Below are positions 1-10,294 of a DNA stretch of 10,294 nt, in pieces. Source of the DNA: a virus; the UHGV virus genome UHGV-1651392; one strand, 5' to 3'. Each line of letters begins with the position of its first letter. Position 1 is the stretch's first letter. The notes under the pieces were generated by a model. It worked only from the letters and a program-made list of their open reading frames with translations. It was not told the DNA's origin and ran no database searches. Position numbers and translations under genes: made by a program.

Positions 1-48
1 GATCCGAACGTTACAGAAAGAAAAAGCGCCCCGTTGCTAGATAACAGG

Positions 49-78
49 CAAAACAAAGGCGACCGGGATAGGTCGCCA
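49..78 (-). terminator. Putative rho-independent terminator for leftward transcription
   Basis: Perfect 7-bp inverted repeat GGCGACC (59-65) / GGTCGCC (72-78) with a 6-nt loop. On the minus strand it is followed by a T-rich run (complement of 49-58, CTTTGTTTTG). Lies downstream of the leftward genes at 381-560 and 144-323. Confidence 0.35.
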
Positions 79-143
79 GTGGGAACAAAGGAAATCAAAC
101 GCATCGCCAACAATGCCAGATTTGCGGCTGGTGGGCAATGTGA

Positions 144-323
144 TCAGTCAGATTTGGTTCGTTCCAGGGTTTGCAACGAGAGCTTTTTCCTGTGCTCTTT
201 AAGGAATTTCTCAAGAGCAAACGAACAAGGTGCGAATCTTTCTGATTCATGTTCATGCGCTATATTTTTGCGTCGTCTCTTACGAGTTGGTGATGGTGTT
301 TTTGTTGATTCTGTGTCGCTCAT
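144..323 (-). CDS. Hypothetical small basic protein (59 aa), possibly co-transcribed with the upstream RHH gene
   Basis: Hand-translated minus-strand ORF just under the 60-aa track cutoff: MSDTESTKTPSPTRKRRRKNIAHEHESERFAPCSFALEKFLKEHRKKLSLQTLERTKSD. ATG is complement of 321-323, stop is complement of 144-146. Only a weak RBS; sits between the RHH gene and the terminator. Could be spurious. Confidence 0.25.
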   Translation of the reverse strand: MSDTESTKTPSPTRKRRRKNIAHEHESERFAPCSFALEKFLKEHRKKLSLQTLERTKSD

Positions 324-380
324 GGTGCTGCCCTGTAAAGCAATGCGCCTGCGTTCCTCAAACTATGGCGCTGATAGTGG

Positions 381-560
381 CTATTCCTGCTCTTTGGCCT
401 TGCGCCGCTGGCGGCGTTTGATCTCGCCTTCAAGTGCTGAAACGATAAATTGTCCCGTGCTTTCGCCAGCTTCCTTTAAGTTTTCTACAGCGTCGGCTAT
501 TGCGTGGGGAACTCGTGCTTCAAGTTTCTTCGATTTTGCATTAACGGCCTTCGTTGCCAT
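381..560 (-). CDS. Ribbon-helix-helix (CopG/Arc/MetJ-type) DNA-binding regulator, 59 aa; putative repressor of the element
   Basis: Internal ATG (complement of 558-560) of track ORF 381..677 is preceded by a strong RBS (AAGAGGA, complement of about 567-573). Product MATKAVNAKSKKLEARVPHAIADAVENLKEAGESTGQFIVSALEGEIKRRQRRKAKEQE shows the RHH pattern: short beta-strand (LEARVP), helix A, GES turn, helix B, basic tail. The longer track start would add a hydrophobic extension encoded over the operator repeats, so it is rejected. Confidence 0.7.
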   Translation of the reverse strand: MATKAVNAKSKKLEARVPHAIADAVENLKEAGESTGQFIVSALEGEIKRRQRRKAKEQE

Positions 561-580
561 ATCTGGATTCCTCTTTATTA

Positions 581-661
581 GGTGGCTGACAGTATACACA
601 CAAGAAATCGAAAAAACACTATTGACGTGGCTGACACCTGTTACTAATATGGTGGCTGACA
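581..661. promoter_or_regulatory. Candidate operator: three direct repeats of GTGGCTGACA between divergent genes
   Basis: Exact 10-mer GTGGCTGACA at 582-591, 627-636 and 652-661 (first and third extend to GGTGGCTGACA). The second lies in the promoter spacer and the third over the predicted transcription start. Confidence 0.5.
622..650 (+). promoter_or_regulatory. Sigma70-type promoter for the rightward operon (-35 TTGACG, 17-bp spacer, -10 TAATAT)
   Basis: TTGACG at 622-627 and TAATAT at 645-650 with a 17-bp spacer; about 110 bp upstream of the first rightward CDS (761). Confidence 0.5.
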
Positions 662-760
662 CTTTTAGTTGTTGCAAGCAACAAAACGACGAAACCCCGC
701 ACTGTTGGAGCAGTAACGGGGCCTCTAACCACCAACGATAGCGAAAGTATCGAGGTAGCT

Positions 761-964
761 ATGTTAAATCATACCACACACCCGCAAGGGCGGGATTCGC
801 ACAACCTGAATAAATACATCTGGCGTTTTATCGCCCTGAGCACGGCACAACCGCGCGTGATTACCATCGAGGCCACCAGCGAACAGAAAGCCCGTCAGCA
901 ATCCCCGGCTGGCTGCGTGATGGTATTTACTGCTCGCATCCGTCAGGGGGAATACTATGCGTGA
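761..964 (+). CDS. Small hypothetical protein (67 aa), first gene of the rightward early operon
   Basis: Track ORF with GAGG at 752-755 just upstream of the ATG at 761. Its stop overlaps the next start (ATGCGTGA). My unverified recollection is that similar small proteins in P4-like/PICI islands are annotated Icd-like. Confidence 0.55.
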   Translation: MLNHTTHPQGRDSHNLNKYIWRFIALSTAQPRVITIEATSEQKARQQSPAGCVMVFTARIRQGEYYA

Positions 965-1214
965 TGAACGATTTATTCTTCTGGAGCAAAAATTCAGTGA
1001 AGCGCCAAAAAATGAAATTGATGCTCTTTTGCATATCGCGAATATGCTAAAAGTAGCAACGTTCCTTATAGTTTCGAATCTGGAGCATGAAACGGCGTTA
1101 GATATACTGAACAGTGCTGTCGATTATTCTGAATATATTGCCGAGGATAAATACAGGCAATTACCAGATTTGTTAGCCCATAAATATAAAGAAGAACCTC
1201 ACACCGGGAAATAA
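957..1214 (+). CDS. Hypothetical protein (85 aa), noticeably AT-rich gene
   Basis: Track ORF; start overlaps the upstream stop by 8 nt; RBS GGGGGA upstream. Looks clearly AT-richer than its neighbours by eye (not counted). Confidence 0.55.
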   Translation: MRDERFILLEQKFSEAPKNEIDALLHIANMLKVATFLIVSNLEHETALDILNSAVDYSEYIAEDKYRQLPDLLAHKYKEEPHTGK

Positions 1215-1216
1215 AC

Positions 1217-1519
1217 ATGAAGAAGATTAAATTTACTGGCTTAAATGCCAGCGGACAGACTCATCCGAAAATCAGGATCGGGGATATTTTCCGGGATAAA
1301 TATGGTGACAGCGTGGTTATTAATTCCGTGTATGAACGGCACATTACATACCGCCGCGCAGGGTATGACTATGACTGTGTGATGCCCGTTCATCAGTTCC
1401 GGCGTGATTTTTCACTGGTATGTGCAGCACCACGCAGTAAGCCCACCAGTAAAGAGAAAGCACGGGCAAATATTCAGGTAATAAAGAACATGATTAACGC
1501 ATTCAGGGGCAAGAAATGA
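1217..1519 (+). CDS. Hypothetical protein (100 aa)
   Basis: Track ORF starting 2 nt after the previous stop; its stop overlaps the next ATG (ATGA at 1516-1519), suggesting coupling. Confidence 0.55.
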   Translation: MKKIKFTGLNASGQTHPKIRIGDIFRDKYGDSVVINSVYERHITYRRAGYDYDCVMPVHQFRRDFSLVCAAPRSKPTSKEKARANIQVIKNMINAFRGKK

Positions 1520-3642
1520 AACGCGCACCGAATTTAAAGCACCAGCCGAAAGACAAAATGACGGAGGTGATTATCTTTGCGGGTAGTGATGCCTGGGCAC
1601 ATGCGAAAGAGTGGAGCGAATGGGCCGGAAAGCATATTGCGGCAGATGATACACATCCAGTTATTCTTGGACCGGAACAACTGGCGAGTCTGGCAGACAC
1701 GCAAATCATCGACAAAGGGCGCTATTACGTGCGCGTTTATCGTGCTGGTGAAATATCAGAGCAGCACCTTACACAGATAGCGACACTGCTTGCAGTGGCG
1801 GGTGTGAAGGAGGCGCGTTGCTACCGCAGCTTTGTTGATCAGCAGCCGGAGGACTGGACACCGCGCATGACTGGACTGAAGGATGATGCGGAACGCGGTA
1901 ACAGTCTGGTGATCAACCTTCCGGCGAAGACAAATTTCACCGGAAATTATGATGACGAATTAAAGCCTCGTGTTGAAAGTCGCGTCGATGGTGTTTTCTG
2001 GGTAACGCCCAAAGTGGACAAGCAGTCAGGCGAAATTATCCGGCCTGAGACGTGGTTATGTTCTCCGCTTGAACTACTGGGAACAGGAACAATCGGCAAA
2101 GAGCATTACCGCGTGATGCGCTGGAAAAAACCAGCAAACCATGAGGTCATTACAATGGCGGTCCCGTGCGGAGGCATTGGTGACCGTGACGGCTGGCGGT
2201 TGCTGAAAGACCACGGCCTTAACGTGACGACCAACGGCAAATACAGGGCTATCCTGGCTGACTGGATGCAGTTAAGCGGAAACCATGAGGAATGGCAGTT
2301 AAGCACAACAACGGGGTGGCATTTTGGTGCGTACATCATGCCGGATGGTTCGATCATCGGTGAATCAGAGAAACCCATCCTGTTTACCGGAAAAACTGCC
2401 GCTGTTAATGGCTATTCCGTGGCGGGAACAGCGGAGGGCTGGCGCGATACCGTGGCACGGCTGGCTGGTGGTAATCCGTCCATGATGCTGGGTGTGGCGG
2501 TATCGCTATCTGCACCATTAATCGGGCTGGTGGGTGCTGACGGCTTCGGGGTTCATCTTTTTGAGCAATCATCAGCAGGTAAAACCACCACACAGAACAT
2601 TGCCTCAAGTTTATGGGGAGAGCCGGACGCGCAACGGCTGACCTGGTACGGAACGGCGTTAGGTATCGCCAACGAGGCCGAAGCACATAATGACGGGCTG
2701 TTACCCCTGGATGAAATAGGCCAGGCCGGAAACGCACGGGAGGTGTCCACGTCAGCCTATACGCTGTTTAACGGTTCCGGGAAATTACAGGGGGCGAAGG
2801 ACGGCGGCAACAGGGAGATAAAACACTGGCGTACGGTGGCAATCAGCACCGGAGAAATGGACGTTGAAACATTCCTCAAAACGGAAGGGATAAAAATTAA
2901 AGCGGGGCAGCTTGTCCGTCTGCTTAACGTACCGATGGAAAAGGCCTCGCAGTTTCACGAATACAGCACCGGAAAGGCGCACGCAGACGCGTTAAAAAAT
3001 GCCTGGACAGAAAATCACGGGGCGGCAGGTCGTGAGTGGGTTAAATGGCTGGCAGGTCACCAGCAGGAGGCAAAGGACGCGGTAAAGGCATGTCGCGAGC
3101 GGTGGCGCAACCTGATACCGGAGAGCTACGGCGAGCAGGTTCACCGTGTGGGGGAAAGATTCGCCGTACTGGAGGCCGCGCTTGTGCTTTCCGGTCATGT
3201 TACAGGCTGGGATGTTCAGGCGTGCCGTGATGCAGTTCAGCATAACTTTAATGCCTGGGTGAAGGAATTCGGCACGGGCAACAGGGAATTTAAACAGATG
3301 GTTGAACAGGCTGAGGCGTTTTTGTCGTCGTTCGGGTTCAGTCGATACCTTCCCTATCCAAACAGCGACGAGCGTGATTTACCGATTAAAGACCTTGCCG
3401 GATACAGAAAGGGGAGCATCAGAAACGAAGATGAGGAGTTCCGTTTTTACACGTTCCCGCATGTGTTTGAGGGTGAGATAGCACAGGGATTTAATCCGTC
3501 TCACTTTGCCCGCGCGTTGAGTGCTGCCGGAATGCTGGAAGCGGGAGGCGACCGCCGTTACAAGAAAAAGGCGCTCGGCAGGATTGGCGGGAAGCAGCAT
3601 ATTTTTTACGTGCTGATGTTCCAGCCTGAAGCAGAATATTAA
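1516..3642 (+). CDS. Replication protein: P-loop NTPase of the DUF927-like primase/helicase type (708 aa)
   Basis: Long ORF with coupled start. Walker A-like motif SSAGKTTT (about 2566-2592) and Walker B-like hhhhDE motif LLPLDEIGQ (about 2698-2724). Directly followed by an iteron cluster, as expected for a Rep/initiator gene. Confidence 0.8.
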   Translation: MKRAPNLKHQPKDKMTEVIIFAGSDAWAHAKEWSEWAGKHIAADDTHPVILGPEQLASLADTQIIDKGRYYVRVYRAGEISEQHLTQIATLLAVAGVKEARCYRSFVDQQPEDWTPRMTGLKDDAERGNSLVINLPAKTNFTGNYDDELKPRVESRVDGVFWVTPKVDKQSGEIIRPETWLCSPLELLGTGTIGKEHYRVMRWKKPANHEVITMAVPCGGIGDRDGWRLLKDHGLNVTTNGKYRAILADWMQLSGNHEEWQLSTTTGWHFGAYIMPDGSIIGESEKPILFTGKTAAVNGYSVAGTAEGWRDTVARLAGGNPSMMLGVAVSLSAPLIGLVGADGFGVHLFEQSSAGKTTTQNIASSLWGEPDAQRLTWYGTALGIANEAEAHNDGLLPLDEIGQAGNAREVSTSAYTLFNGSGKLQGAKDGGNREIKHWRTVAISTGEMDVETFLKTEGIKIKAGQLVRLLNVPMEKASQFHEYSTGKAHADALKNAWTENHGAAGREWVKWLAGHQQEAKDAVKACRERWRNLIPESYGEQVHRVGERFAVLEAALVLSGHVTGWDVQACRDAVQHNFNAWVKEFGTGNREFKQMVEQAEAFLSSFGFSRYLPYPNSDERDLPIKDLAGYRKGSIRNEDEEFRFYTFPHVFEGEIAQGFNPSHFARALSAAGMLEAGGDRRYKKKALGRIGGKQHIFYVLMFQPEAEY

Positions 3643-3665
3643 CTTCCCTGTGTGAGGTAAAAAGT

Positions 3666-3790
3666 TGCGGGTTATGCGGGTTATCCTGTGTATAAGTTAA
3701 TTAAATGCATGATTAAAAAGGAAATCAATAACCCGCACGTAACCCGCAAAACGGCAGTTATAACCCGCAAATGTGCGATTGTAACCCGCA
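3666..3790. repeat. Iteron cluster, putative replication origin (or Rep/regulator binding array)
   Basis: 9-mer TAACCCGCA direct copies at 3729-3737, 3740-3748, 3761-3769 and 3782-3790 (spacings 11, 21, 21 bp). Two tandem inverted copies TGCGGGTTA at 3666-3674 and 3675-3683. They flank an AT-rich core at 3684-3728. Confidence 0.55.
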
Positions 3791-3852
3791 AAATTTCACT
3801 GTAAGAGTGTAAACAAGCGTAACTATCACGTTAAAACCGGAGAACAAACAGC

Positions 3853-4278
3853 ATGACGGCGCAAATATCAGCTTACGGGCGGCTGGTGGCTGACCCGCAG
3901 TTAAAGACCACCAGCAAGGGCACACAAATGGCGATGGCGAGTATGGCGGTCCCCCTTCCATGCAATCAGGCAGATGACGGAACGGCGACGATGTGGTTAT
4001 CCGTCCTGGCGTTTGGCAGACAGGCTGACGCACTGGCAAAACACCACAAAGGCGAACTGGTGAGCGTGGCCGGTAACATGCAGGTGAGCCGGTGGACGGG
4101 CCAGAACGGCGAAACGAGGCAGGGATGGCAGGTTATCGCAGACAGCGTAATCAGTGCGCGAACGGCGCGACCGGGCGGCAAAAAAGGCCAGCAGGGGCAG
4201 GCTACTGATGCACTGAACAGGGCAAAGCAACAGACAGGCCAGCACGATGATCCGTACGGGGACGGGATACCGTTTTAA
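3853..4278 (+). CDS. ssb: Single-stranded DNA-binding protein (141 aa)
   Basis: RBS GGAGAA at 3839-3844. OB-fold-like core with conserved aromatic positions, a Gly/Gln-rich linker and an acidic C-terminal tail ending DDPYGDGIPF (compare E. coli SSB DDDIPF). Confidence 0.85.
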   Translation: MTAQISAYGRLVADPQLKTTSKGTQMAMASMAVPLPCNQADDGTATMWLSVLAFGRQADALAKHHKGELVSVAGNMQVSRWTGQNGETRQGWQVIADSVISARTARPGGKKGQQGQATDALNRAKQQTGQHDDPYGDGIPF

Positions 4279-4314
4279 TTCACAACAGCGAACAGAGTAA
4301 TTACAGGGGAAGGC

Positions 4315-4812
4315 ATGACAAAGCTGACCATAAACAGAAAACCGAAGGGCATTTACGGCACGCCGCAGAAAACAGCACAGGCGGCGCAGCAGCAGAATAA
4401 AACCACATCGGCGCATAAAGTGATGCCAGATAACCAGAACACACAGCAGAAGCTCACAGGAGCAACACCGCGGCGGCGTATGACCAAACAGCAGCGTAAA
4501 AACCGCAGACGCGTTAACCGTCTTATTGAGCTATGGCCTGAATTATTCAGCCCGGAATCACCTAAGCCGCTTAAGGTGGGGATATTTGACGACCTGATAC
4601 AGGATATTGCCGCGAGAGGTATTTCACTCGGACAGGGAACACTACGCGCAACGCTGGCGCGTTATGTGCAGACTCCGCGCTATTACCGCGCCCTGGTAGC
4701 TGGTGGCGCGCGTTACGACCTGAAAGGCCAGCCGTGCGGCGAGGTAACACCACTACAACAGACGCACGCAGGAAAACTACTGGAGGAGATGAATGGAAAT
4801 AGAAAGAAATGA
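4315..4812 (+). CDS. ProQ/FinO-family RNA-binding protein (165 aa)
   Basis: RBS AGGGGA at about 4303-4308. Segment [27 protein letters not shown]...[35 protein letters not shown] closely parallels the ProQ N-terminal FinO domain (PLKIGIF.DL ... LR.AL..Y..S.RY ... R.DL.G.PCGE). Confidence 0.85.
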
Positions 4813-5209
4813 TCACGCACATGGTCGCCGTGCAGGTGATCACATTGTGGATGAAATTGCGAAAAAACAAAGAGTTGACATTGTTGTCAGTGTCACAGTC
4901 GAGAGCGCGAAGCGCCAAAATAAGCGTATAAATGATCATTCAGATGTACATGGTGTGATCACTCGTTTACGCCAGACTTTTGTAACTCGTGAAGAGATGA
5001 TTGAAGCTATTGACCAGCATACAGCATGTATCAGCGTCAGGGATATACCGGAGATCATTGCTAACTACTTCATGATCACCAGACGCCTTTACCGGAGAAA
5101 AGACAAGAGCACGGTTAACCGTCTCCTGATGTCTGATATTCGCGAATACCTGCAAGAAAGAGGCTATGTGAATCCACCAGAACAGCACTACGGAAAAGTC
5201 GGAGGCTAA
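4793..5209 (+). CDS. Hypothetical protein (138 aa), overlapping the 3' end of the ProQ/FinO gene
   Basis: Track ORF; ATG at 4793 preceded by GGAGGA at 4782-4787 (5-nt spacer); overlaps the upstream gene by 20 nt. No recognisable motifs. Confidence 0.6.
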
Positions 5210-5293
5210 CTAAAACCCTGTACCGAAGAGCGGCGGCGCGATGGGGTGAAGTAATGCAGTTGGGGTACTGACAAGGAACGGTATTGCATATCA

Positions 5294-5443
5294 ATGCGAC
5301 GACTGGAATGTTCCAGGAAGGCACAGAGGCCACCGAAGCAACCGGATAATTTAGAAGACCTGAAACGGTCGCTTAAACGCACTGAAAAAGAAATGGGGAT
5401 AGATGGGATCGGGAAATCAGTATGGCGTAACTACCAGAAGTAA
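5294..5443 (+). CDS. Possible small basic protein (49 aa); alternatively part of a small RNA
   Basis: Hand-translated: MRRLECSRKAQRPPKQPDNLEDLKRSLKRTEKEMGIDGIGKSVWRNYQK. Stop TAA at 5441-5443 lies 6 nt before a strong terminator. No convincing RBS (AAGGAA is 15 nt upstream). Confidence 0.25.
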   Translation: MRRLECSRKAQRPPKQPDNLEDLKRSLKRTEKEMGIDGIGKSVWRNYQK

Positions 5444-5449
5444 GCACAG

Positions 5450-5473
5450 AGCCGGAGCAATCCGGCTTTTTTT
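5450..5473 (+). terminator. Rho-independent terminator
   Basis: Perfect 7-bp stem AGCCGGA (5450-5456) / TCCGGCT (5461-5467) with GCAA loop, followed by a run of seven T ending at 5473. Confidence 0.65.
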
Positions 5474-5575
5474 GGGGCTGAAATCAATCAATCTGTTTTT
5501 GTGATAGAAATATGTTTATCTACCACTTTTTCAGATCAATAATGTGCATAGTTTAGTCAGTAAGAGGAAATTGCT

Positions 5576-5782
5576 GTGAATTGTATTAACGACCTGAACA
5601 CAGGCGATGTCAGAGGTGGTTCCGTTCATCTGGATGCACAGACCGTGATGCGCCTTAAGCAGTACAGAATCGACCATGTGAACAATCACCCTGATCAGCC
5701 ATTACCAGGCGTGGCGCAGATTGTCAGACATGCCGTAAACGCCTGGCTTAATCAGAATGGTTTTGCATCGGGGGGTGAGTAA
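5576..5782 (+). CDS. Small protein (68 aa), GTG start; possible ribbon-helix-helix-like regulator
   Basis: GTG at 5576 preceded by a strong RBS AAGAGGAAA (5562-5570). Pattern SVHLDAQTVMRLKQY ... GVAQIVRHAVNAWLNQNG is compatible with a strand-helix-helix fold (weak). Stop overlaps a short downstream reading frame. Confidence 0.5.
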   Translation: MNCINDLNTGDVRGGSVHLDAQTVMRLKQYRIDHVNNHPDQPLPGVAQIVRHAVNAWLNQNGFASGGE

Positions 5783-5878
5783 TGAATCGCTGGTACAGCA
5801 TCAAAGCGGAGGGACGCCAATGTTATTTAAATCAGGTTTTATGAATTCTGGTACACGATTCAAAACAGGGGGTTACTG

Positions 5879-8410
5879 ATGCCAGTCGTACCAACAGTAT
5901 CCGGACGCCAGGTTGAGAGCCGTGGAGTTCAGTCAGCAGGCTTGCAGACGTTTTCTCAGCCAGATATTGGTGATGCTTTTGTTCGGGCAGGGACAGAGGC
6001 AATTGATGTTCTTGGTCAGGCAAAACAGCGCGCCAATATTGCCTTGGTTCAGGAGGCATCCCTTAAACTCAGTCAGACAGGCAGTGATCTGCTGAATAAT
6101 CCTGAAACAGGATTGCTTAACTTGAAAGGGAAAAATGCTATTGGAAAAGGCCATGAGTATACACAGCAGTTTGATGCTCAGATCGAACAACTGGCTATGT
6201 CGCTGCCGGATGAACAGGCTCGTAATGCTTTCATGCAGCAGGCGCAGCAGCAGCGTATTCAGTTCGCTACGCAGGCCGGGAGGTACGAGATAGGGCAAAT
6301 AAATGCCTACGAAGAAGGCCAGTTTCAGGCGACACTGCTGAATAATGGTAAAAATGCCTCAGCATTATATGGCGACAACGCAGCATACATATTGGCTAAT
6401 ACGCAAACTTTCCAGCAAATTGAGGATTACGGTATTGCGCATGGCTGGAGCGACGAGCAAATCCAGGCCAAGAAAATCGAGTTTAAAGAAGCAACAGCAA
6501 AAGCAACTGCTCAAAATGCTATTGGAGCAAACTATCTTCAGGTAAGACAGCAAAATGGCGAGTTAAGCGATACTGCTGCTGGATCTCGCCGTGCTGTAGC
6601 AGATAGTGGCTCTTCCGATCGTACCCGCGGTATACGCAACAATAACCCCGGCAATCTTGAATACAGCAAAACTAATCCGTGGGTTGGGCAGACTGGTGAT
6701 GATGGTCGCTTTGCCAAATTCGAAACCCCTGAACACGGTATTCGCGCGCTTGGTCGCAATTTGCTGTCGTATCAGCGTCAGGGTTATGACACCATCAGCG
6801 AAATAATTAATCGCTGGGCACCGGCCAGTGATGATAATAAAACTGATGCTTATATACGGGCAGTATGTGCTCAGCTCGGTGTAACTCCTGACCAGCCGCT
6901 TGACGCATCAAATCCTGACACACTGAAATCTCTGTGCAAAGCAATTATTCATCATGAGCAAGGCAGTCAGCCGTACAGTGATCAGCAATTGGCCGCTGGC
7001 GTTAGTGCCGCACTGGGGCTTTCTCAGCTACCGACAAAAAATAAACGTTATACCGGTGTAGCCTGGTTCGATGCTTTAAGTGAATCAGATCAGGCCAGCG
7101 TGTTGCGACAGACGGATGCATTAGCCAGACAGCAGCAGGCTGAATATAGAACGATGCTCGAAAGCCGGGTTCGCGATGCAACGGCTGCGTATATGCGTGG
7201 CGTTGAATTTCCTAACCCGCCTGGTGAGGGTGAGTTCATTGCTGCTTATGGTGTCAGAGAAGGAAACCTGCGATATACCGAGTTCAGAAATTTGCAGATC
7301 GCCGGACAGTATATAGGCTCTTTCCGCAACATGCCGACAAGCAGCATTACCGCATATGTTGAGCAATTACGCCCGGATACTGGTGAGACAGGGGAGGGGT
7401 ATGCGTCTCGTGCGGAGTTATTCGACCGGGTATCGGCGGCAGCCACGAAGGTAATAACCCAGAGGCAGAATAATCCGTTTAGTGCAGCGGTGGAAATCGG
7501 AGCCTATAAGCCGATCACCAGCAACAACCCTGACGACATCACTGCCGAGGTGGCTAACCGTTTCTCGTCGCAGGAAAGCTTACGCGCGTTGGGAATTAAT
7601 GCCCCACTCCTCAACAGTGAAGAGGCGGCTGCGCTGGCACAGCAGGTGCGCGGCACTCAGAACGTTGACCAGACAATTAAACTGTTGCAGAGCATGGGGG
7701 AGAAGCTGCCTGCGCCAGCAATACGGCAGGTGGCATCTGTAATTGCTCCGAACAGTGCGGCAACAGCCTATTCTGCGCTGCTGCTGGGCACGCCGGATAA
7801 CCAGTACGACAACACCAGGCCGACGATCCCATATAGTCAGTTCATCGGGTATAAGCCGACGATGAACAAGTACGACGTTGCAAAGGTTATTCTTTCCGGC
7901 GACCAACTACTGAATCCGACGAAGGCCATGAAGAATGCGGGCATAACTCCGGTACAGTTGCCGAGCGAAGATAAGATGAAAGACGCTTTCGACGAACAGG
8001 TAGGTAATGCATTTGCCCGTAACCCGCAGTTACGCCAGATCAGTTATAGCCTTTTCAAAGCCGCTTACGCAGGAATAGCTTATCAATCTGGTGATGCCTC
8101 TACGGTAAGAACCAGTATGCCTGATACAGACATTGTAGCTGATGCCGTGAAGTATGCTACTGGCGGTATATACAATGGTTTTAATGGCGGCGACGTTGTA
8201 ATGCCTTTTGGCATGGATAAATCTACTTTCAAAGATCGCTATACCACATCTGCGAAACAAGCACTGAAAGATGCCGGACTTAACGTAAATGCAGTGTCAA
8301 ATTTCACGCCAGTTAATATCGGCAATAACCGGTATCGGCTTGTAAATGGTAGCGGACGCTGGGCAACAGATCCCAGAACCAATAAAGCTATTGTCGTGAG
8401 GGTTGAATAA
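5879..8410 (+). CDS. Large protein of unknown function (843 aa); possibly a virion/cell-envelope-associated or effector-type protein
   Basis: Long ORF with RBS AGGGGG (5866-5871). Gln/Ala-rich, probably helical N-terminal third. Central segment with conserved-looking motif RTRGIRNNNPGNLEYSKTNPWVGQTGDDGRFAKFETPEHGIRALGRNLL. Stop overlaps the next ATG (TAATG at 8408-8412). Function not assignable from sequence alone. Confidence 0.8.
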   Translation: MPVVPTVSGRQVESRGVQSAGLQTFSQPDIGDAFVRAGTEAIDVLGQAKQRANIALVQEASLKLSQTGSDLLNNPETGLLNLKGKNAIGKGHEYTQQFDAQIEQLAMSLPDEQARNAFMQQAQQQRIQFATQAGRYEIGQINAYEEGQFQATLLNNGKNASALYGDNAAYILANTQTFQQIEDYGIAHGWSDEQIQAKKIEFKEATAKATAQNAIGANYLQVRQQNGELSDTAAGSRRAVADSGSSDRTRGIRNNNPGNLEYSKTNPWVGQTGDDGRFAKFETPEHGIRALGRNLLSYQRQGYDTISEIINRWAPASDDNKTDAYIRAVCAQLGVTPDQPLDASNPDTLKSLCKAIIHHEQGSQPYSDQQLAAGVSAALGLSQLPTKNKRYTGVAWFDALSESDQASVLRQTDALARQQQAEYRTMLESRVRDATAAYMRGVEFPNPPGEGEFIAAYGVREGNLRYTEFRNLQIAGQYIGSFRNMPTSSITAYVEQLRPDTGETGEGYASRAELFDRVSAAATKVITQRQNNPFSAAVEIGAYKPITSNNPDDITAEVANRFSSQESLRALGINAPLLNSEEAAALAQQVRGTQNVDQTIKLLQSMGEKLPAPAIRQVASVIAPNSAATAYSALLLGTPDNQYDNTRPTIPYSQFIGYKPTMNKYDVAKVILSGDQLLNPTKAMKNAGITPVQLPSEDKMKDAFDEQVGNAFARNPQLRQISYSLFKAAYAGIAYQSGDASTVRTSMPDTDIVADAVKYATGGIYNGFNGGDVVMPFGMDKSTFKDRYTTSAKQALKDAGLNVNAVSNFTPVNIGNNRYRLVNGSGRWATDPRTNKAIVVRVE

Positions 8411-10245
8411 TGTCTGATGTTTTTTCTTTGGCTCCAGAAGGTCAGGCATGGATTGACGACAAAACAGTTGCCAACCCAGCAAGGCCAGAAGACTACGATC
8501 CGACTCCCTTCCAGGGTTCAGGTACTGCACTTTTGAGCGGCGTGGCGGAGGGGGCTCTCGGTCTCGCGCAGTCTGCCGTCGGATTCAGCAAGCGCCTGAT
8601 TAGCGATCCGGCATTTACCGCAGACGTGGCACCGACAGTTAATATTTTTCGGGAGATGTTCCCTGATGCTGACAAAACACTGAATGATACATACGACACG
8701 ATCGGAAAACAGTTACAGGATGCCCGCAGCTATGTGAAGCCTGATGCAGGCAGCCAGGGAATGGCGGCTGAGGTATTAAATGAGGTTGGTAAATTTGTTC
8801 CTGCAATCGGAACAACTATGTTTGGTGGTCCGCTCATCGGCGCTGCTACAGCCTTCAGTTCTACGTATGAGCAGTCCTATCAGGATTTTAAAGGGAAGGG
8901 AGTAGACGAGGCTACAGCGCGTAACCTGGCAACGCAGCAGAGCCTTTTCAATGCTGTGGGTATGGCCTTACCCGCTGCCGTCGGCACCACACTGGCAACG
9001 CGCATTGCCTCAGGTGTGGCAATCAACACCGGATTCGGTGGACTGAACCGTTACTCAGTAGGCGCAACACTGGAGGAAAAAGGCTACACGGAGATGGCAA
9101 AACAGTACCGGGTATTTGACGGTCAGGCGATGTTAGTCGATGCCGTTTTAGGCGGGGTCTTTGGTGGCGTTCATCACCTGACTACCCATAATAACCATGA
9201 TGGTACAGAGTCGAACATTTCTGCAGAAGAAATAAAATCAACTTTTGGTGAACATTATCAGCAATCTCCTGATGGTAACATTGAGTCAATGGTTCGTGAT
9301 TTATCTGATTCAGGAGTAATAGAACTTATTAATGAACCAGCAATAAAAAATAGTGATGGAGAAATACTTCTGAATAAAGGTCATGTGACAGTAGCTTCCG
9401 GAAAAGAACCAATAATAAGAATAAATATTAATGGATTAAAAGACCATGAAGAACTGTTAGAAACCCTTCATCACGAGGCGCTTCATCTTGAGCAGCGCCA
9501 TTACCCTGACTGGAAGGCCAGAAAGCTAGCTAATGCTGTACTTAAATCTGCAAACAAGCATTCTGACTATCCTGAATTTGCATATGGGATGTCACAATAT
9601 TATGAATATAAGAAAAGGGGTGAGTACCCTGAAACATATCCTGAGTGGTTGTACGCTGAAGAAGTTGCCGCACATGCAGTAAATCCATCTCTAAAGACAA
9701 GCGTTTCATCATGGGAAAAAATTATTTCAGGTTTTAAAGCCTATATATTCAGATACAGTGGTATTCAGGTTGGAACCGTTACACCTGAGCAGTTACGGTT
9801 ACTCGTAAGTATGCGTCTTCGCAATATGAAACTGGAAGCCGCAGTAGAAAAAGTTTTTGGTATCCGGGCGAGGGAAAGAATAAAACCAAGCGATATTGAT
9901 GCAGCCCACATTTTGAATGAGGGGCTTCATTACGATATTGAATCGTCACCAGTGCTTCATACCAGCAATGAGAGCATCAACAGCCATGTTGACGCCATGG
10001 ATGAAGCATACAGGCAACTTAATGATGGTCAGCCTGTAAATGTTGGGGGGATGGCGCGAGGGCTTGATGGTCCATTGCGATCAGATATATCTGATACTTA
10101 CCAAGAGCAATACCATGAAATACAAAAGGTTTTTGAAGAAAATGGTGTCAGATACGAAACATCATCAGAGCCAATTAGTGAATCGCCTGTCCCTCGTGAA
10201 CCGCCCCGGGAATCCTGGAGACTAAACTTCCTGAGAAAGAGGTAA
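8410..10245 (+). CDS. Modular protein (611 aa as read): GC-rich Gly/Ala-rich hydrophobic N-terminal trunk plus AT-rich C-terminal domain with HExxH motif; 3' end fused to and truncated by an IS element
   Basis: Coupled start with RBS GAGGG (8398-8402). N-terminal 257 aa contain repeated small-residue hydrophobic segments (for example GTTMFGGPLIGAATAF, ALPAAVGTTLATRIASGVAINTGFGG, VLGGVFGGV). Sampled 60-nt blocks fall from 57-68% GC to 28-35% GC at about 9180. HEALH motif at 9472-9486. The last 16 codons (from 10197) are IS-derived, so the native C-terminus is missing or altered. Confidence 0.75.
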   Translation: MSDVFSLAPEGQAWIDDKTVANPARPEDYDPTPFQGSGTALLSGVAEGALGLAQSAVGFSKRLISDPAFTADVAPTVNIFREMFPDADKTLNDTYDTIGKQLQDARSYVKPDAGSQGMAAEVLNEVGKFVPAIGTTMFGGPLIGAATAFSSTYEQSYQDFKGKGVDEATARNLATQQSLFNAVGMALPAAVGTTLATRIASGVAINTGFGGLNRYSVGATLEEKGYTEMAKQYRVFDGQAMLVDAVLGGVFGGVHHLTTHNNHDGTESNISAEEIKSTFGEHYQQSPDGNIESMVRDLSDSGVIELINEPAIKNSDGEILLNKGHVTVASGKEPIIRININGLKDHEELLETLHHEALHLEQRHYPDWKARKLANAVLKSANKHSDYPEFAYGMSQYYEYKKRGEYPETYPEWLYAEEVAAHAVNPSLKTSVSSWEKIISGFKAYIFRYSGIQVGTVTPEQLRLLVSMRLRNMKLEAAVEKVFGIRARERIKPSDIDAAHILNEGLHYDIESSPVLHTSNESINSHVDAMDEAYRQLNDGQPVNVGGMARGLDGPLRSDISDTYQEQYHEIQKVFEENGVRYETSSEPISESPVPREPPRESWRLNFLRKR

Positions 10246-10294
10246 ACAGGATGACTAAAAATACTCGTTTTTCCCCCGAAGTCCGTCAACGGGC
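10197..10294 (+). mobile_element. Left end of an IS3-family insertion sequence (IS629/IS1203-like), continuing beyond the window
   Basis: Sequence TGAACCGCCCCGGGAATCCTGGAGACTAAACTTCCTGAGAAAGAGGTAAACAGG followed by ATG ... MTKNTRFSPEVRQR matches my recollection of the IS629-type left inverted repeat and OrfA start. The exact boundary (10196/10197) is from memory and needs confirmation. Confidence 0.6.
10251..10294 (+). CDS. IS3-family transposase OrfA, N-terminal fragment (partial at window edge)
   Basis: ATG at 10251 with RBS GAGG (about 10240-10243); translation MTKNTRFSPEVRQR(A) is characteristic of IS3-family OrfA helix-turn-helix proteins. Confidence 0.7.
   Translation, partial: MTKNTRFSPEVRQR

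What the first reader, a model, noticed from the sequence alone, without database searches (positions are those of the whole stretch)
5879..10245. Two-gene coupled operon of large uncharacterised proteins (843 aa + 611 aa) as cargo; candidate novel system
Both genes have strong RBSs and the second start overlaps the first stop (TAATG), implying co-expression. Neither resembles the capsid, terminase, capsid-size or late-activator genes expected in a satellite, so they look like accessory cargo. The first protein has a Gln-rich helical N-terminus and a central block with the motif GIRNNNPGNL...W.GQTGDDGRFAKFETPEHGIRA that I cannot assign to a family with confidence; I have a vague, unverified memory of similar motifs in phage virion-associated proteins. 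Together with the HExxH partner this could be a toxin/effector pair, an anti-phage defence module, or a pair of phage ejection proteins.
Basis: inference. Interest (0 to 1): 0.7.

Follow-up and report, generated by a model that had tools for sequence, protein, structure and literature searches.

The report
Phage DNA-ejection genes inside a satellite island
The two large genes are not a new toxin or defence system: they are close copies of the genome-injection proteins of epsilon15-type short-tailed phages, carried, unusually, by a small chromosomal phage-parasite island that has no capsid or tail genes, and the second gene is cut short here by an insertion sequence.

Summary
The operon is real. 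ORF1 (5879-8410, 843 aa) has a good ribosome-binding site, and its stop overlaps the ORF2 start (TAATG). The 611-aa ORF2 is an artefact: IS629 is inserted at 10198/10199, so it holds 596 native residues of a 686-aa protein plus 15 IS-derived ones.

Both proteins belong to known families. ORF1 is 79% identical over its full length to Salmonella phage epsilon15 gp15 (phrog_992). The "GIRNNNPGNL" block is a PHA02564 (Enc34-endolysin-type) peptidoglycan hydrolase domain. ORF2 is the epsilon15 gp16 homologue, with a swapped-in, AT-rich HExxH module. Intact copies continue with a gp17 homologue (89%), a small ORF and the phage late-operon terminator.

The context is the interesting part. The cassette lies in an 18.9-kb integrase/AlpA/DUF927-primase island with no capsid, terminase or tail genes. 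The junction between the island backbone and the cassette occurs in 45 of 20,395 records of complete E. coli genomes, at three chromosomal sites. Four cassette alleles were seen; each had an intact copy among those inspected. dN/dS between type A copies is 0.05-0.3. Uetakevirus prophage genes co-occur in 26 of 37 island genomes against 9.5% of the others.

The closest published relative, EcCIMP1, is mobilised by podophage Kapi1 and carries a P22-type ejection cassette that has not been characterised. Verdict: a new variant of a known satellite kind. What the cassette does for the satellite is untested.

The parts
5460..5812 (+). Conserved 'late-slot' leader. It holds a terminator-like hairpin after the PerC-family gene, an AT-rich spacer and a 68-aa gene (5576-5782, phrog_4934, function unknown).
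   Evidence: It is 88% identical to the segment directly upstream of the ClpP-protease/major-capsid fusion gene in a smaller related island, L017. Homology to that island ends 66 nt before the ORF1 ATG.
5866..5872 (+). Shine-Dalgarno-like CAGGGGG, 6 nt upstream of the ORF1 ATG.
   Evidence: Read directly from the sequence.
5879..8410 (+). ORF1, 843 aa. Homologue of epsilon15 gp15 / phiV10 p18, a virion internal/ejection protein that carries a muralytic domain.
   Evidence: 79% identity over 843 aa to epsilon15 gp15. phrog_992 at E = 5e-290. dN/dS between island copies is 0.16-0.30.
6620..6982 (+). PHA02564-family peptidoglycan hydrolase domain (aa 248-368), containing the GIRNNNPGNL motif (6629-6658).
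   Evidence: PDB 9vvp_L Gp29 at E = 9e-41 and 7q47 Enc34 endolysin at E = 3e-18. ORF1 W313, Y325 and E360 lie in the conserved RWAP, (T/D)AY and HE.GS motifs shared with Enc34, and I equate them with its Trp79, Tyr95 and catalytic Glu131 by local motif only. Chain numbering was counted for the Glu alone, with a 1-residue offset (PMC8943055).
7405..7406 (.). Recombination breakpoint inside ORF1 (about aa 509). Upstream is shared with phiV10-type E. coli prophages at 85-92% nt identity. Downstream belongs to the epsilon15-type allele.
   Evidence: Phage and prophage matches stop at 7405. The F11 island has the same N-terminus joined to a phiV10-type remainder. The AH19D088 island has a prophage-type N-terminus joined to a type A remainder.
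8410..10198 (+). Native part of ORF2: aa 1-596 of a 686-aa epsilon15 gp16 homologue (phrog_1145).
   Evidence: 83% identity for aa 1-281 and 74% for aa 480-686 to epsilon15 gp16. phrog_1145 at E = 6e-107. dN/dS is 0.05-0.09 where substitutions allow an estimate.
9190..9861 (+). Swapped-in central module of ORF2 (aa 261-484) with HEALH at 9472-9486. Its GC content is 0.38 against 0.53 upstream.
   Evidence: Absent from epsilon15 gp16 and from most homologues. Present, with the motif kept as HEAFH, in the Pectobacterium copy. A 71%-identical copy, P0004, lies in a phage-type contig. No Pfam, NCBIfam or PADLOC family matches. An exhaustive phmmer search found only a fragment.
10199..10294 (+). 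Left end of IS629 (IS3 family), disrupting ORF2. Positions 10199-10245 supply the 15 foreign codons and the stop.
   Evidence: 99-100% identical to IS629 ends in Stx phages (H22-H25). The divergence point from the intact island is shown.

Best explanation
The two ORFs are the first two genes of a four-gene cassette: homologues of gp15, gp16 and gp17, plus a small ORF. The cassette encodes the internal-virion/DNA-ejection proteins of Uetakevirus (epsilon15/phiV10-type) podophages. Here it is carried by an 18.9-kb EcCIMP1-like phage-inducible chromosomal island (PICI).

Shown: homology and synteny with the phage genes; the island context; conservation of the cassette in the island lineage; and recombination with, and co-occurrence with, Uetakevirus prophages.

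Inferred mechanism. When a resident or infecting Uetakevirus enters lytic growth, the island excises. It replicates from its own DUF927 primase and an iteron-type origin, and is packaged into helper capsids. The island's late operon, led by the conserved 68-aa-gene leader, supplies its own ejection proteins. These are built into the procapsid core through the gp15 N-terminal part, which matches the helper allele. On the next cell, the gp15 PHA02564 domain cuts peptidoglycan. gp15, gp16 and gp17 form the trans-envelope conduit, and the gp16 HExxH module enters with them.

The island would thereby bring its own injection machinery. The likely benefit is independence from whichever cassette allele the helper carries, which would widen the range of usable helpers. 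The benefit is the least certain step.

In this particular window the cassette is probably inactive. IS629 truncates gp16 and is expected to be polar on gp17.
For: Identity of the genes:
- ORF1 is 79% identical to epsilon15 gp15, ORF2 is about 80% identical to gp16 outside the insert, and the next gene is 89% identical to gp17.
- PHROG families are matched at E = 5e-290, 6e-107 and 2.5e-295.
- In 12 of 13 genome loci the homologues follow portal, capsid, gp11, gp12, gp13 and gp14 (T7 gp14 family). The same holds in L022, L026 and L028.
- The muralytic domain retains the conserved catalytic motifs (PMC8943055).

Island context:
- The island carries int, an AlpA-like HTH gene, AntA/B, Icd-like, DUF4222, a DUF927 primase, SSB, ProQ and PerC, and no capsid, terminase or tail genes.
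- Homology to the phage starts at the gp15 ATG and ends at the late-operon terminator.
- Candidate att repeats lie 18,920 bp apart.
- An origin-like set of iterons lies distal to the cassette.

Maintenance of the cassette:
- 45 E. coli genome records carry the leader/gp15 junction.
- The island is found at three integration sites, with at least two distinct integrases.
- The genes are intact in six of the seven complete islands inspected; the exception is UTAK-6.
- dN/dS between type A copies is 0.05-0.30, similar to the primase.
- Four alternative alleles occupy the same slot: epsilon15-type, phiV10-type with this window's gp15 N-terminus (F11), epsilon15-type with a prophage-type gp15 N-terminus (AH19D088), and an SLT type.
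- A Pectobacterium locus has the same primase, SSB, gp15, gp16, gp17 layout at 42-49% identity for gp15 and gp16.

Link to a helper:
- 26 of 37 island genomes have a second place matching a phiV10 portal + island gp16 test query, against 511 of 5,389 other genomes (odds ratio 22.6, p = 1e-18, not corrected for phylogeny).
- For the seven genomes whose second place was located, it is a Uetakevirus prophage gp12-gp14 block. One of these, in strain UID2309220007, was read in full and is a near-complete phiV10-like prophage.
- Exchange of gp15 segments between islands and prophages shows that they share cells.

Precedent:
- EcCIMP1 (primase 62% and AntA/B 75% identical to this island) excises and is transduced only with podophage Kapi1 (PMC11773190).
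- In the same slot it carries P22-type gp14, gp7, gp20 and gp16 homologues.
Against: - No experiment shows that this island excises or is packaged, or that its proteins enter virions.
- No packaging determinant was identified. The only candidate is a 138-aa protein with a weak match to a small-terminase N-terminus.
- The helper already encodes ejection proteins, so the benefit of a second set is conjecture.
- The island lacks gp13 and gp14, so it cannot supply a complete core on its own.
- 11 of 37 island genomes have no detectable Uetakevirus prophage.
- The co-occurrence test ignores strain relatedness.
- The placement of epsilon15 gp15 and gp17 in the virion (inner core or tail hub) is not settled in the literature I could read (PMC12391199; from memory, Guichard 2013 assigns them to the tail tube).
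- EcCIMP1 transduction is very inefficient, and the role of its cassette is untested.
- Two of the island copies seen are damaged: this window by IS629, and UTAK-6 by a frameshift in gp15.
Confidence: 0.6

Rival explanations
1. Interference or immunity module. The island-encoded ejection proteins would act against phages rather than for island transfer. Heterotypic subunits could poison the core of helper virions, lowering helper infectivity. Alternatively, expressed in the lysogen, they could block the conduit of superinfecting phages.
For: The island allele differs strongly from the resident prophage allele in the cases compared: gp16 31% and gp17 27% identity in strain UID2309220007, and a different cassette type in F11. 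[quoted passage not shown] Satellites commonly interfere with their helpers (general knowledge).
Against: The allele mismatch is what base rates predict, because epsilon15-type prophages are rare in E. coli. It is therefore not evidence by itself. No PADLOC hit. There is no promoter evidence for expression in the lysogenic state. The muralytic motifs and the full-length architecture are conserved, which fits working ejection proteins better than decoys. In EcCIMP1, helper titres after induction were unchanged (PMC11773190).
Confidence: 0.22
2. Functionless passenger. A fragment of a Uetakevirus late operon was captured by recombination and simply persists in the island.
For: The homology starts at a gene start and ends at a terminator, which is compatible with one capture event. 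This window (IS629) and UTAK-6 (frameshifted gp15) show that decay occurs. There are no gp13 or gp14 genes.
Against: 7.7 kb of an 18.9-kb island keeps long intact ORFs in six of seven complete islands inspected. dN/dS is 0.05-0.30. Four different alleles all occupy the same slot, each with an intact copy. The epsilon15-type allele is rare in E. coli prophages yet is the majority type in islands. The same layout is found in Pectobacterium at 42-49% identity. EcCIMP1 holds a P22-type equivalent.
Confidence: 0.1
3. A toxin/effector or defence pair that works independently of virions. The HExxH protein would be the toxic or effector partner.
For: The HExxH motif is conserved as HEALH/HEAFH between 42%-identical orthologues. 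The Pectobacterium copy gives weak, sub-threshold hits to putative metallopeptidase families DUF6782 and DUF5700 (E about 0.02). phrog_10089 (DarB-like antirestriction) is hit weakly at E = 8e-4.
Against: Both proteins are full-length homologues of virion proteins. The HExxH module also occurs in a gp16 within a phage-type contig (L026), and a nucleotide match suggests phage VB_ST_E15 has it too. No Pfam, NCBIfam or PADLOC family is matched. The module is an insert inside an ejection protein, so any effector role would be carried out after injection from a virion.
Confidence: 0.03

Closest known systems
Salmonella phage epsilon15 gp15-gp16-gp17 and Escherichia phage phiV10 p18-p19-p20 (genus Uetakevirus): virion structural / internal-virion proteins
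   Same: Same gene order and overlapping starts and stops. Identity to epsilon15 is 79%, about 80% and 89%. The same late-operon terminator as phiV10 follows the cassette. The same PHROG families are matched.
   Different: The genes are not preceded by portal, capsid, gp11, gp12, gp13 or gp14. They lie in an island with its own integrase, primase and origin. ORF1 is a mosaic: an E. coli-prophage-like N-terminal 509 aa joined to an epsilon15-like remainder. ORF2 carries an HExxH insert that epsilon15 gp16 lacks.
EcCIMP1, an E. coli PICI mobilised by the Lederbergvirus vB_EcoP_Kapi1 (Pick, Stadel & Raivio, ISME J 2025, PMC11773190)
   Same: Same backbone: int, AlpA, AntA/B (75% identical), DUF4222, Icd-like, DUF927 primase (62% identical) and PerC. 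Similar size (19,963 bp against about 18.9 kb). A podophage ejection-protein cassette lies immediately downstream of the replication module.
   Different: The EcCIMP1 cassette is P22-type (homologues of gp14, gp7, gp20 and gp16 with a lytic transglycosylase domain) and has no detectable similarity to the epsilon15-type trio. Its integration site (tRNA-Thr) and integrase differ. Helper dependence was shown by experiment for EcCIMP1 and is only inferred here. The authors treat the cassette genes as hypothetical 'DNA transfer' proteins that might serve packaging.
T7 gp14/gp15/gp16 and P22 gp7/gp20/gp16 ejectosomes (review PMC8954989)
   Same: Functional analogy. The gene block lies after the tail-tube genes and a T7-gp14-family gene, and one subunit carries a peptidoglycan hydrolase domain (T7 gp16, K1E gp35). 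The family is mosaic, with domains swapping between subunits.
   Different: No significant sequence similarity to T7 or P22 proteins was found. The muralytic domain is PHA02564-type, not SLT-type. The epsilon15 entry in the review's Table 1 (229, 499 and 708 aa) does not match the RefSeq gene sizes, so I did not use it.
Capsid-remodelling or capsid-forming satellites (P4, SaPIs, cf-PICIs)
   Same: A satellite that carries homologues or modifiers of helper virion components in its late operon. A related small island (L017) has a protease/major-capsid fusion gene behind the same leader.
   Different: None of these families is known, to my knowledge, to carry ejection proteins. This island has no sid, psu, delta, cpm, capsid or terminase genes.

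Membership tests
Uetakevirus gp15/gp16(/gp17) internal-virion / ejection proteins | Full-length sequence homology to epsilon15 gp15 and gp16 | tested here: met
   79% identity over 843 aa for ORF1. 83% and 74% for the two flanks of gp16. PHROG E-values 5e-290 and 6e-107.
Uetakevirus gp15/gp16(/gp17) internal-virion / ejection proteins | Synteny gp15-gp16-gp17, ending at the late-operon terminator | tested here: met
   Intact islands have genes of 843, 686, 918 and 104 aa followed by a hairpin that matches the phiV10 terminator. In this window, IS629 cuts the block inside gp16.
Uetakevirus gp15/gp16(/gp17) internal-virion / ejection proteins | Location inside a phage morphogenesis module, after gp11-gp14 | tested here: not met
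   No portal, capsid, gp11, gp12, gp13 or gp14 homologue in the island. The upstream genes are PICI backbone.
Uetakevirus gp15/gp16(/gp17) internal-virion / ejection proteins | Presence in virions and release on infection | not testable with these tools
   Needs proteomics of particles produced by island-bearing lysogens.
PHA02564 (Enc34-type) peptidoglycan hydrolase domain | Domain homology, with the catalytic Glu and the conserved Trp and Tyr retained | tested here: met
   7q47 at E = 3e-18 and 9vvp_L at E = 9e-41. ORF1 E360, W313 and Y325 lie in the motifs shared with Enc34 (PMC8943055). The correspondence to Glu131, Trp79 and Tyr95 rests on those motifs. Enzyme activity was not tested.
Gram-negative PICI (EcCIMP1-like, 'Type C' in the SatelliteFinder scheme) | Integrase, AlpA-type regulator and primase/replicase in the conserved order; size about 10-20 kb; flanking att repeats | tested here: met
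   RefSeq annotation of L001, L019-L021, L027 and L111, plus Pfam hits for DUF927 and the other backbone genes. A 24-nt repeat (22 of 24 identical) occurs 18,920 bp apart. I did not run SatelliteFinder, so the 'Type C' label is the EcCIMP1 authors' classification of their own element.
Gram-negative PICI (EcCIMP1-like, 'Type C' in the SatelliteFinder scheme) | No phage capsid, tail, terminase or lysis genes | tested here: met
   None found by Pfam, PHROGs or tblastx against phiV10 and epsilon15. The ejection cassette is the only virion-related content.
Gram-negative PICI (EcCIMP1-like, 'Type C' in the SatelliteFinder scheme) | Helper-phage-dependent excision, replication and packaging | not testable with these tools
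   Only indirect support: co-occurrence with Uetakevirus prophage genes (26 of 37 against 9.5%) and allele exchange with prophages. It was shown by experiment for the relative EcCIMP1 (PMC11773190).
Zincin-type metallopeptidase (HExxH module of ORF2) | HExxH motif conserved among orthologues | tested here: met
   HEALH in E. coli and in P0004, HEAFH in Pectobacterium.
Zincin-type metallopeptidase (HExxH module of ORF2) | A significant profile or fold match to a zincin family | tested here: inconclusive
   No Pfam hit for the E. coli module. The Pectobacterium copy gives only sub-threshold hits to DUF6782 and DUF5700 (E about 0.02). The AlphaFold2 model has mean pLDDT 48 and is unusable. An exhaustive phmmer search found only a 74-aa fragment.
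Known anti-phage defence or toxin systems | Match to a PADLOC, Pfam or NCBIfam model of a defence or toxin protein | tested here: not met
   No hits for ORF1, gp16, gp17 or their neighbours.
P4-like satellite | Presence of psu, delta, sid or epsilon genes and a P4 alpha-type layout | tested here: not met
   No such family appears among the Pfam, PHROG or RefSeq annotations of the island genes. An Icd-like gene and a primase are present, but PICIs have these too.

The most novel reading that the evidence does not exclude
A lineage of DUF927-primase PICIs that parasitise short-tailed phages routinely carries a complete, swappable ejectosome cassette: P22-type in EcCIMP1, and four Uetakevirus-type alleles here. 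The cassette would re-arm hijacked helper capsids with the satellite's own genome-injection machinery. This would make transfer independent of the helper's cassette allele. It might also let satellite particles enter lysogens that exclude the helper's own injection apparatus. That would be a satellite strategy distinct from capsid resizing, capsid formation or tail theft.
Probability: 0.3. Interest if true: 0.75.

Novelty: new variant of a known kind. Interest (0 to 1): 0.55.

Why it matters
Known satellites resize capsids, build their own capsids, redirect terminases or steal tails. I found no paper describing a satellite that supplies its own DNA-ejection proteins. In the only published relative, EcCIMP1, the equivalent genes were left as unexplained 'DNA transfer' proteins.

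If island-encoded ejection proteins do enter helper particles, three things follow:
- It would add a new layer to satellite-helper conflict.
- It could explain why ejection cassettes are the most mosaic part of these podophage genomes.
- It would offer a natural system for swapping ejectosomes between otherwise identical virions. That bears on post-adsorption host range and on phage engineering.

At a practical level, these 840-920-aa 'hypothetical proteins' in E. coli genomes can now be annotated. Islands of this type would also be recognised as satellites rather than as defective prophages.

Tried and rejected
- Pfam, NCBIfam and PADLOC scans of ORF1, gp16 and gp17 gave no family.
- A word-indexed homologue search with the HExxH module alone found nothing.
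- An exhaustive phmmer search of that module against 1.84 billion representatives returned only a 74-aa fragment. The module cannot be assigned by sequence.
- An AlphaFold2 model of the module, built on a three-sequence alignment, had mean pLDDT 48. I did not run a fold search on it, because the matches would be meaningless.
- A scan for a sigma-70-type promoter directly upstream of ORF1 found none.
- A short-word BLAST of the upstream leader against phiV10, epsilon15 and a resident prophage found no shared late-promoter sequence.
- The idea that the island is a deleted Uetakevirus prophage was rejected. Its integrase is only about 30% identical to the phage integrase. Apart from that and a BRO-N fragment, nothing outside gp15-gp17 matches. 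The phage tailspike and lysis genes that would lie between gp17 and attR are also absent.
- The idea that the HExxH module is island-specific was rejected, because a 71%-identical copy (P0004) lies in a phage-type contig.
- The pattern 'island allele differs from resident prophage allele' (eight of eight cases) is not informative, because epsilon15-type prophages are rare in E. coli anyway.
- The epsilon15 row in Table 1 of review PMC8954989 does not match the RefSeq gene sizes, so I did not use it.
- The primary epsilon15 papers (Jiang 2006, Chang 2010, Guichard 2013) are not held in the library.
- Rfam and tRNA scans of the window were empty.

Full report
**1. Observation**

The window holds a same-strand run of genes. 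It ends in two large ORFs at 5879-8410 (843 aa) and 8410-10245 (611 aa). ORF1 has CAGGGGG 6 nt upstream of its ATG. Its TAA stop shares one base with the ORF2 ATG (TAATG), and GAGGG lies 7 nt upstream of that ATG.

The 3' end of ORF2 is not native. Window 1-10198 is 100% identical to E. coli MS 196-1, and the two sequences part at 10199. The last 96 bases are the left end of IS629, including the start of its orfA (H22-H25). ORF2 therefore consists of 596 native residues plus 15 IS-encoded ones. The uninterrupted gene encodes 686 aa. It is followed by a 918-aa gene, a 104-aa gene and a strong hairpin terminator.

**2. What the proteins are**

- **ORF1** is 79% identical over its whole length to gp15 of Salmonella phage epsilon15. 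It matches phrog_992 ('head protein') at E = 5e-290.
  - It matches the N-terminal domain of PDB 9vvp chain L (Gp29, E = 9e-41).
  - It also matches the catalytic domain of the Hafnia phage Enc34 endolysin (7Q47, E = 3e-18).
  - That domain defines family PHA02564, a lysozyme-like muralytic fold with measured activity on Gram-negative peptidoglycan (PMC8943055).
  - ORF1 E360, W313 and Y325 lie in the conserved motifs that hold Enc34's Glu131, Trp79 and Tyr95. I matched them by local motif.
- **ORF2** is the gp16 homologue. It is 83% identical over aa 1-281 and 74% over aa 480-686, with an unrelated centre.
- **The centre of ORF2** (aa 261-484) contains HEALH and has a GC content of 0.38, against 0.53 upstream. 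It looks like a swapped-in module.
  - Other gp16 homologues have a coiled-coil-like insert or none: proteins of 521 and of 620-636 aa.
  - The module recurs in the Pectobacterium copy with the motif kept as HEAFH.
  - It also recurs in P0004, 71% identical, whose contig is phage-type with a T7-gp14-family gene upstream.
  - A nucleotide match suggests that phage VB_ST_E15 has it too.
  - It could not be assigned to a family. Pfam, NCBIfam and PADLOC gave nothing. The Pectobacterium copy gave only sub-threshold hits to putative metallopeptidase families. The structure model was too poor to use.
- **The third gene** of intact islands is 89% identical to epsilon15 gp17 (phrog_684).

**3. Normal context of these genes**

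Of 13 genome loci found with ORF1, 12 place the trio directly after portal, protease, capsid, gp11, gp12, gp13 and gp14 of a Uetakevirus-type prophage. NCBI names the gp14 homologue 'virion core protein, T7 gp14 family'. The order mirrors T7 genes 11 to 16. Reviews state that epsilon15, like T7 and P22, ejects internal virion proteins that form a trans-envelope conduit (PMC8954989).

Whether epsilon15 gp15 and gp17 lie in the inner core or in the tail hub is not settled in what I could read (PMC12391199). The primary papers were not available. Either way, they are virion proteins of the DNA-delivery apparatus.

**4. Context here**

In MS 196-1 the genes lie in an island between yicC and dinD. 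The gene order is:

- integrase, a hypothetical gene, an AlpA-like HTH gene, AntA/B and BRO-N;
- YlcI, an Icd-like gene, DUF4222, a DUF927 primase, SSB, ProQ/FinO, a 138-aa gene, PerC and a 68-aa gene;
- then gp15, gp16, gp17 and the 104-aa gene.

Other features of the island:

- 24-nt repeats 18,920 bp apart are candidate att sites.
- About 1.2 kb of non-coding DNA after the cassette holds three direct and three inverted TGCGGGTTAT iterons around an AT-rich stretch. This looks like a replication origin.
- Similarity to phiV10 and epsilon15 begins at the gp15 ATG and ends at the late-operon terminator. Elsewhere, only a 30%-identical integrase and a BRO-N fragment match.
- There are no capsid, terminase, tail or lysis genes.

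**5. Is the cassette debris or a maintained part of the island?**

The evidence points to maintenance.

- **Frequency.** The whole window is present in 37 of 5,426 complete E. coli genomes. The junction between the 68-aa leader gene and gp15 is present in 45 records.
- **Mobility.** Islands lie at three sites with at least two distinct integrases: yicC|dinD, tRNA-Gly (actS|yqeG) and dadX|cvrA.
- **Intactness.** The cassette genes are intact in six of the seven complete islands I inspected. The exception is UTAK-6, which has a broken gp15. The copy in this window is also broken, by IS629.
- **Selection.** dN/dS between island copies is 0.16-0.30 for gp15, 0.05-0.09 for gp16 where substitutions allow an estimate, and 0.16-0.29 for gp17. 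The primase gives 0.05-0.26.
- **Alternative alleles in the same slot.**
  - Epsilon15-type: 843/686/918 aa, found in 37 genomes.
  - PhiV10-type: 837/600/824 aa, intact in F11, joined to the island-type gp15 N-terminus.
  - A mosaic with a prophage-type gp15 N-terminus, in AH19D088.
  - An SLT-domain type: 873/565/849/186 aa, intact in strain 755.
- **Other genera.** A Pectobacterium zantedeschiae locus shows a DUF927 primase and SSB followed by gp15, gp16 and gp17 at 42-49% identity for gp15 and gp16. It has no portal or capsid gene within the 10 kb upstream or the 4.7 kb downstream of the trio.
- **The wider family.** Among 80 IMG/VR loci with primases 60-100% identical, only the three copies of this island have an ejection cassette. 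Five have a protease/capsid gene and the rest have other content. The slot is therefore variable across the wider family but fixed within this lineage.

**6. Link to Uetakeviruses**

I built a chimeric query from an island-specific part of gp16 and the phiV10 portal gene. With it, 26 of 37 island genomes show a second place. Among the other genomes, 511 of 5,389 match (odds ratio 22.6, Fisher p = 1e-18, not corrected for relatedness).

The second places that I could locate are Uetakevirus prophage gp12-gp14 blocks, in seven island-bearing genomes. The one in UID2309220007, read in full, is a near-complete phiV10-like prophage. Its gp15, gp16 and gp17 are only 64%, 31% and 27% identical to the island's.

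Patchwise identity of gp15 N-termini between islands and prophages shows repeated recombination between the two, which requires co-residence in one cell.

In all eight co-resident cases the island allele differs from the prophage allele. This is what base rates predict, so I draw no conclusion from it.

**7. Closest known element**

EcCIMP1 (PMC11773190) is a 19,963-bp E. coli PICI. Its excision and transduction depend on the P22-like podophage Kapi1. Its locus in strain MP1 has the same backbone: the primase is 62% identical and AntA/B 75% identical to this island's.

Directly after the primase come four genes that match phrog_651 (P22 gp14-like), phrog_598 ('DNA ejection', gp7-like), phrog_917/2534 (gp20-like) and phrog_770 ('DNA transfer protein', gp16-like) with an N-terminal transglycosylase. 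They are 83%, 57%, 26% and 24% identical to the Kapi1 counterparts.

The authors saw 'DNA transfer'-like hypothetical proteins there. They suggested a role in packaging and did not test it. They also report that EcCIMP1 adds to superinfection immunity without any known defence system.

'PICI plus podophage ejection cassette' is therefore a recurring design. It now appears with a P22-type cassette and with several Uetakevirus-type cassettes. I found no paper that states or explains this.

**8. Mechanism and confidence**

| Claim | Probability |
|---|---|
| The genes encode ejection/internal-virion proteins of the epsilon15 family | about 0.95 |
| The island is a helper-dependent satellite of Uetakevirus-type phages | about 0.7 |
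| Its proteins are built into helper capsids and serve delivery of island DNA | about 0.45 |

The confidence of 0.6 given for the best explanation is for the overall reading: an ejection cassette that forms a working part of a podophage satellite. It does not cover the last step alone.

The main rival is an interference or immunity role (0.22). Functionless capture (0.1) and a virion-independent toxin or defence pair (0.03) are unlikely.

In this window, IS629 truncates gp16 and is probably polar on gp17. This copy is therefore likely defective.

**9. Verdict**

The finding is real but was misread in its headline. It is not a novel two-gene system. It is the 5' part of a known phage gene cassette, interrupted by an IS element. 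The unexpected feature is where the cassette resides. Novelty is 'new variant of a known kind'. Interest is moderate (0.55). The proteins themselves are ordinary. The recurrent, allele-swapping ejection cassette in satellites of short-tailed phages is an unexplained pattern that can readily be tested.

Noticed in passing
window 10199-10294: The left inverted repeat and the start of orfA of IS629 (IS3 family) are inserted after codon 596 of the gp16-like gene. None of the 37 complete-genome copies of the island has this insertion (their matches end at 10198), so the source strain is not among them.
   Followed up: partly
window 4793-5209: A 138-aa protein. Its N-terminus (aa 5-68) hits phrog_1711 'terminase', and nt 4810-4962 match features annotated 'Pac1' or 'terminase'. 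Its C-terminus resembles the anti-repressor Ant. dN/dS between island copies is 1.1-1.8, based on few substitutions. It is a candidate for packaging redirection or helper interaction.
   Followed up: partly
window 3665-3678, and L001 29244-29400 (outside the window): Iteron TTGCGGGTTATGCG occurs once just after the primase gene. Three direct and three inverted copies surround an AT-rich stretch at the right end of the island. This two-site arrangement resembles the ori and crr of P4 (from memory).
   Followed up: partly
window about 5218-5443: The PerC-family gene is flagged as frameshifted in every island copy whose annotation I read (MS 196-1, UTAK-6, AH19D088, GF4, GPEC1366, F11, strain 755). 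The shorter form may be the real product, or the frameshift may be programmed.
   Followed up: no
window 5460-5812: The leader with the 68-aa gene (phrog_4934, function unknown) is shared at 88% identity with a roughly 10-kb island that instead carries a ClpP-protease/major-capsid fusion gene and a DUF1441 gene. It looks like a common regulatory entry to alternative virion-gene modules.
   Followed up: partly
L028 17502-23233, L111 12400-19832, L022 23475-30267: E. coli Uetakevirus-type prophages keep portal, capsid, gp11, gp12 and gp13 nearly constant. Their ejection modules fall into at least three mutually very divergent types, one of them with only two large proteins (905 and 1,004 aa).
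   Followed up: partly
L011 4772-9061 (Pectobacterium zantedeschiae): The Pectobacterium island-like locus carries a QueC-like gene and a nucleoside 2-deoxyribosyltransferase-domain gene (possibly DNA modification), plus a KilA-N gene, between the primase and the ejection trio.
   Followed up: no
PMC8954989, Table 1: The review lists the epsilon15 ejection proteins as gp11 (229 aa), gp12 (499 aa) and gp13 (708 aa). These sizes do not match NC_004775 (201, 825 and 154 aa) and look like those of a P22-like phage.
   Followed up: no
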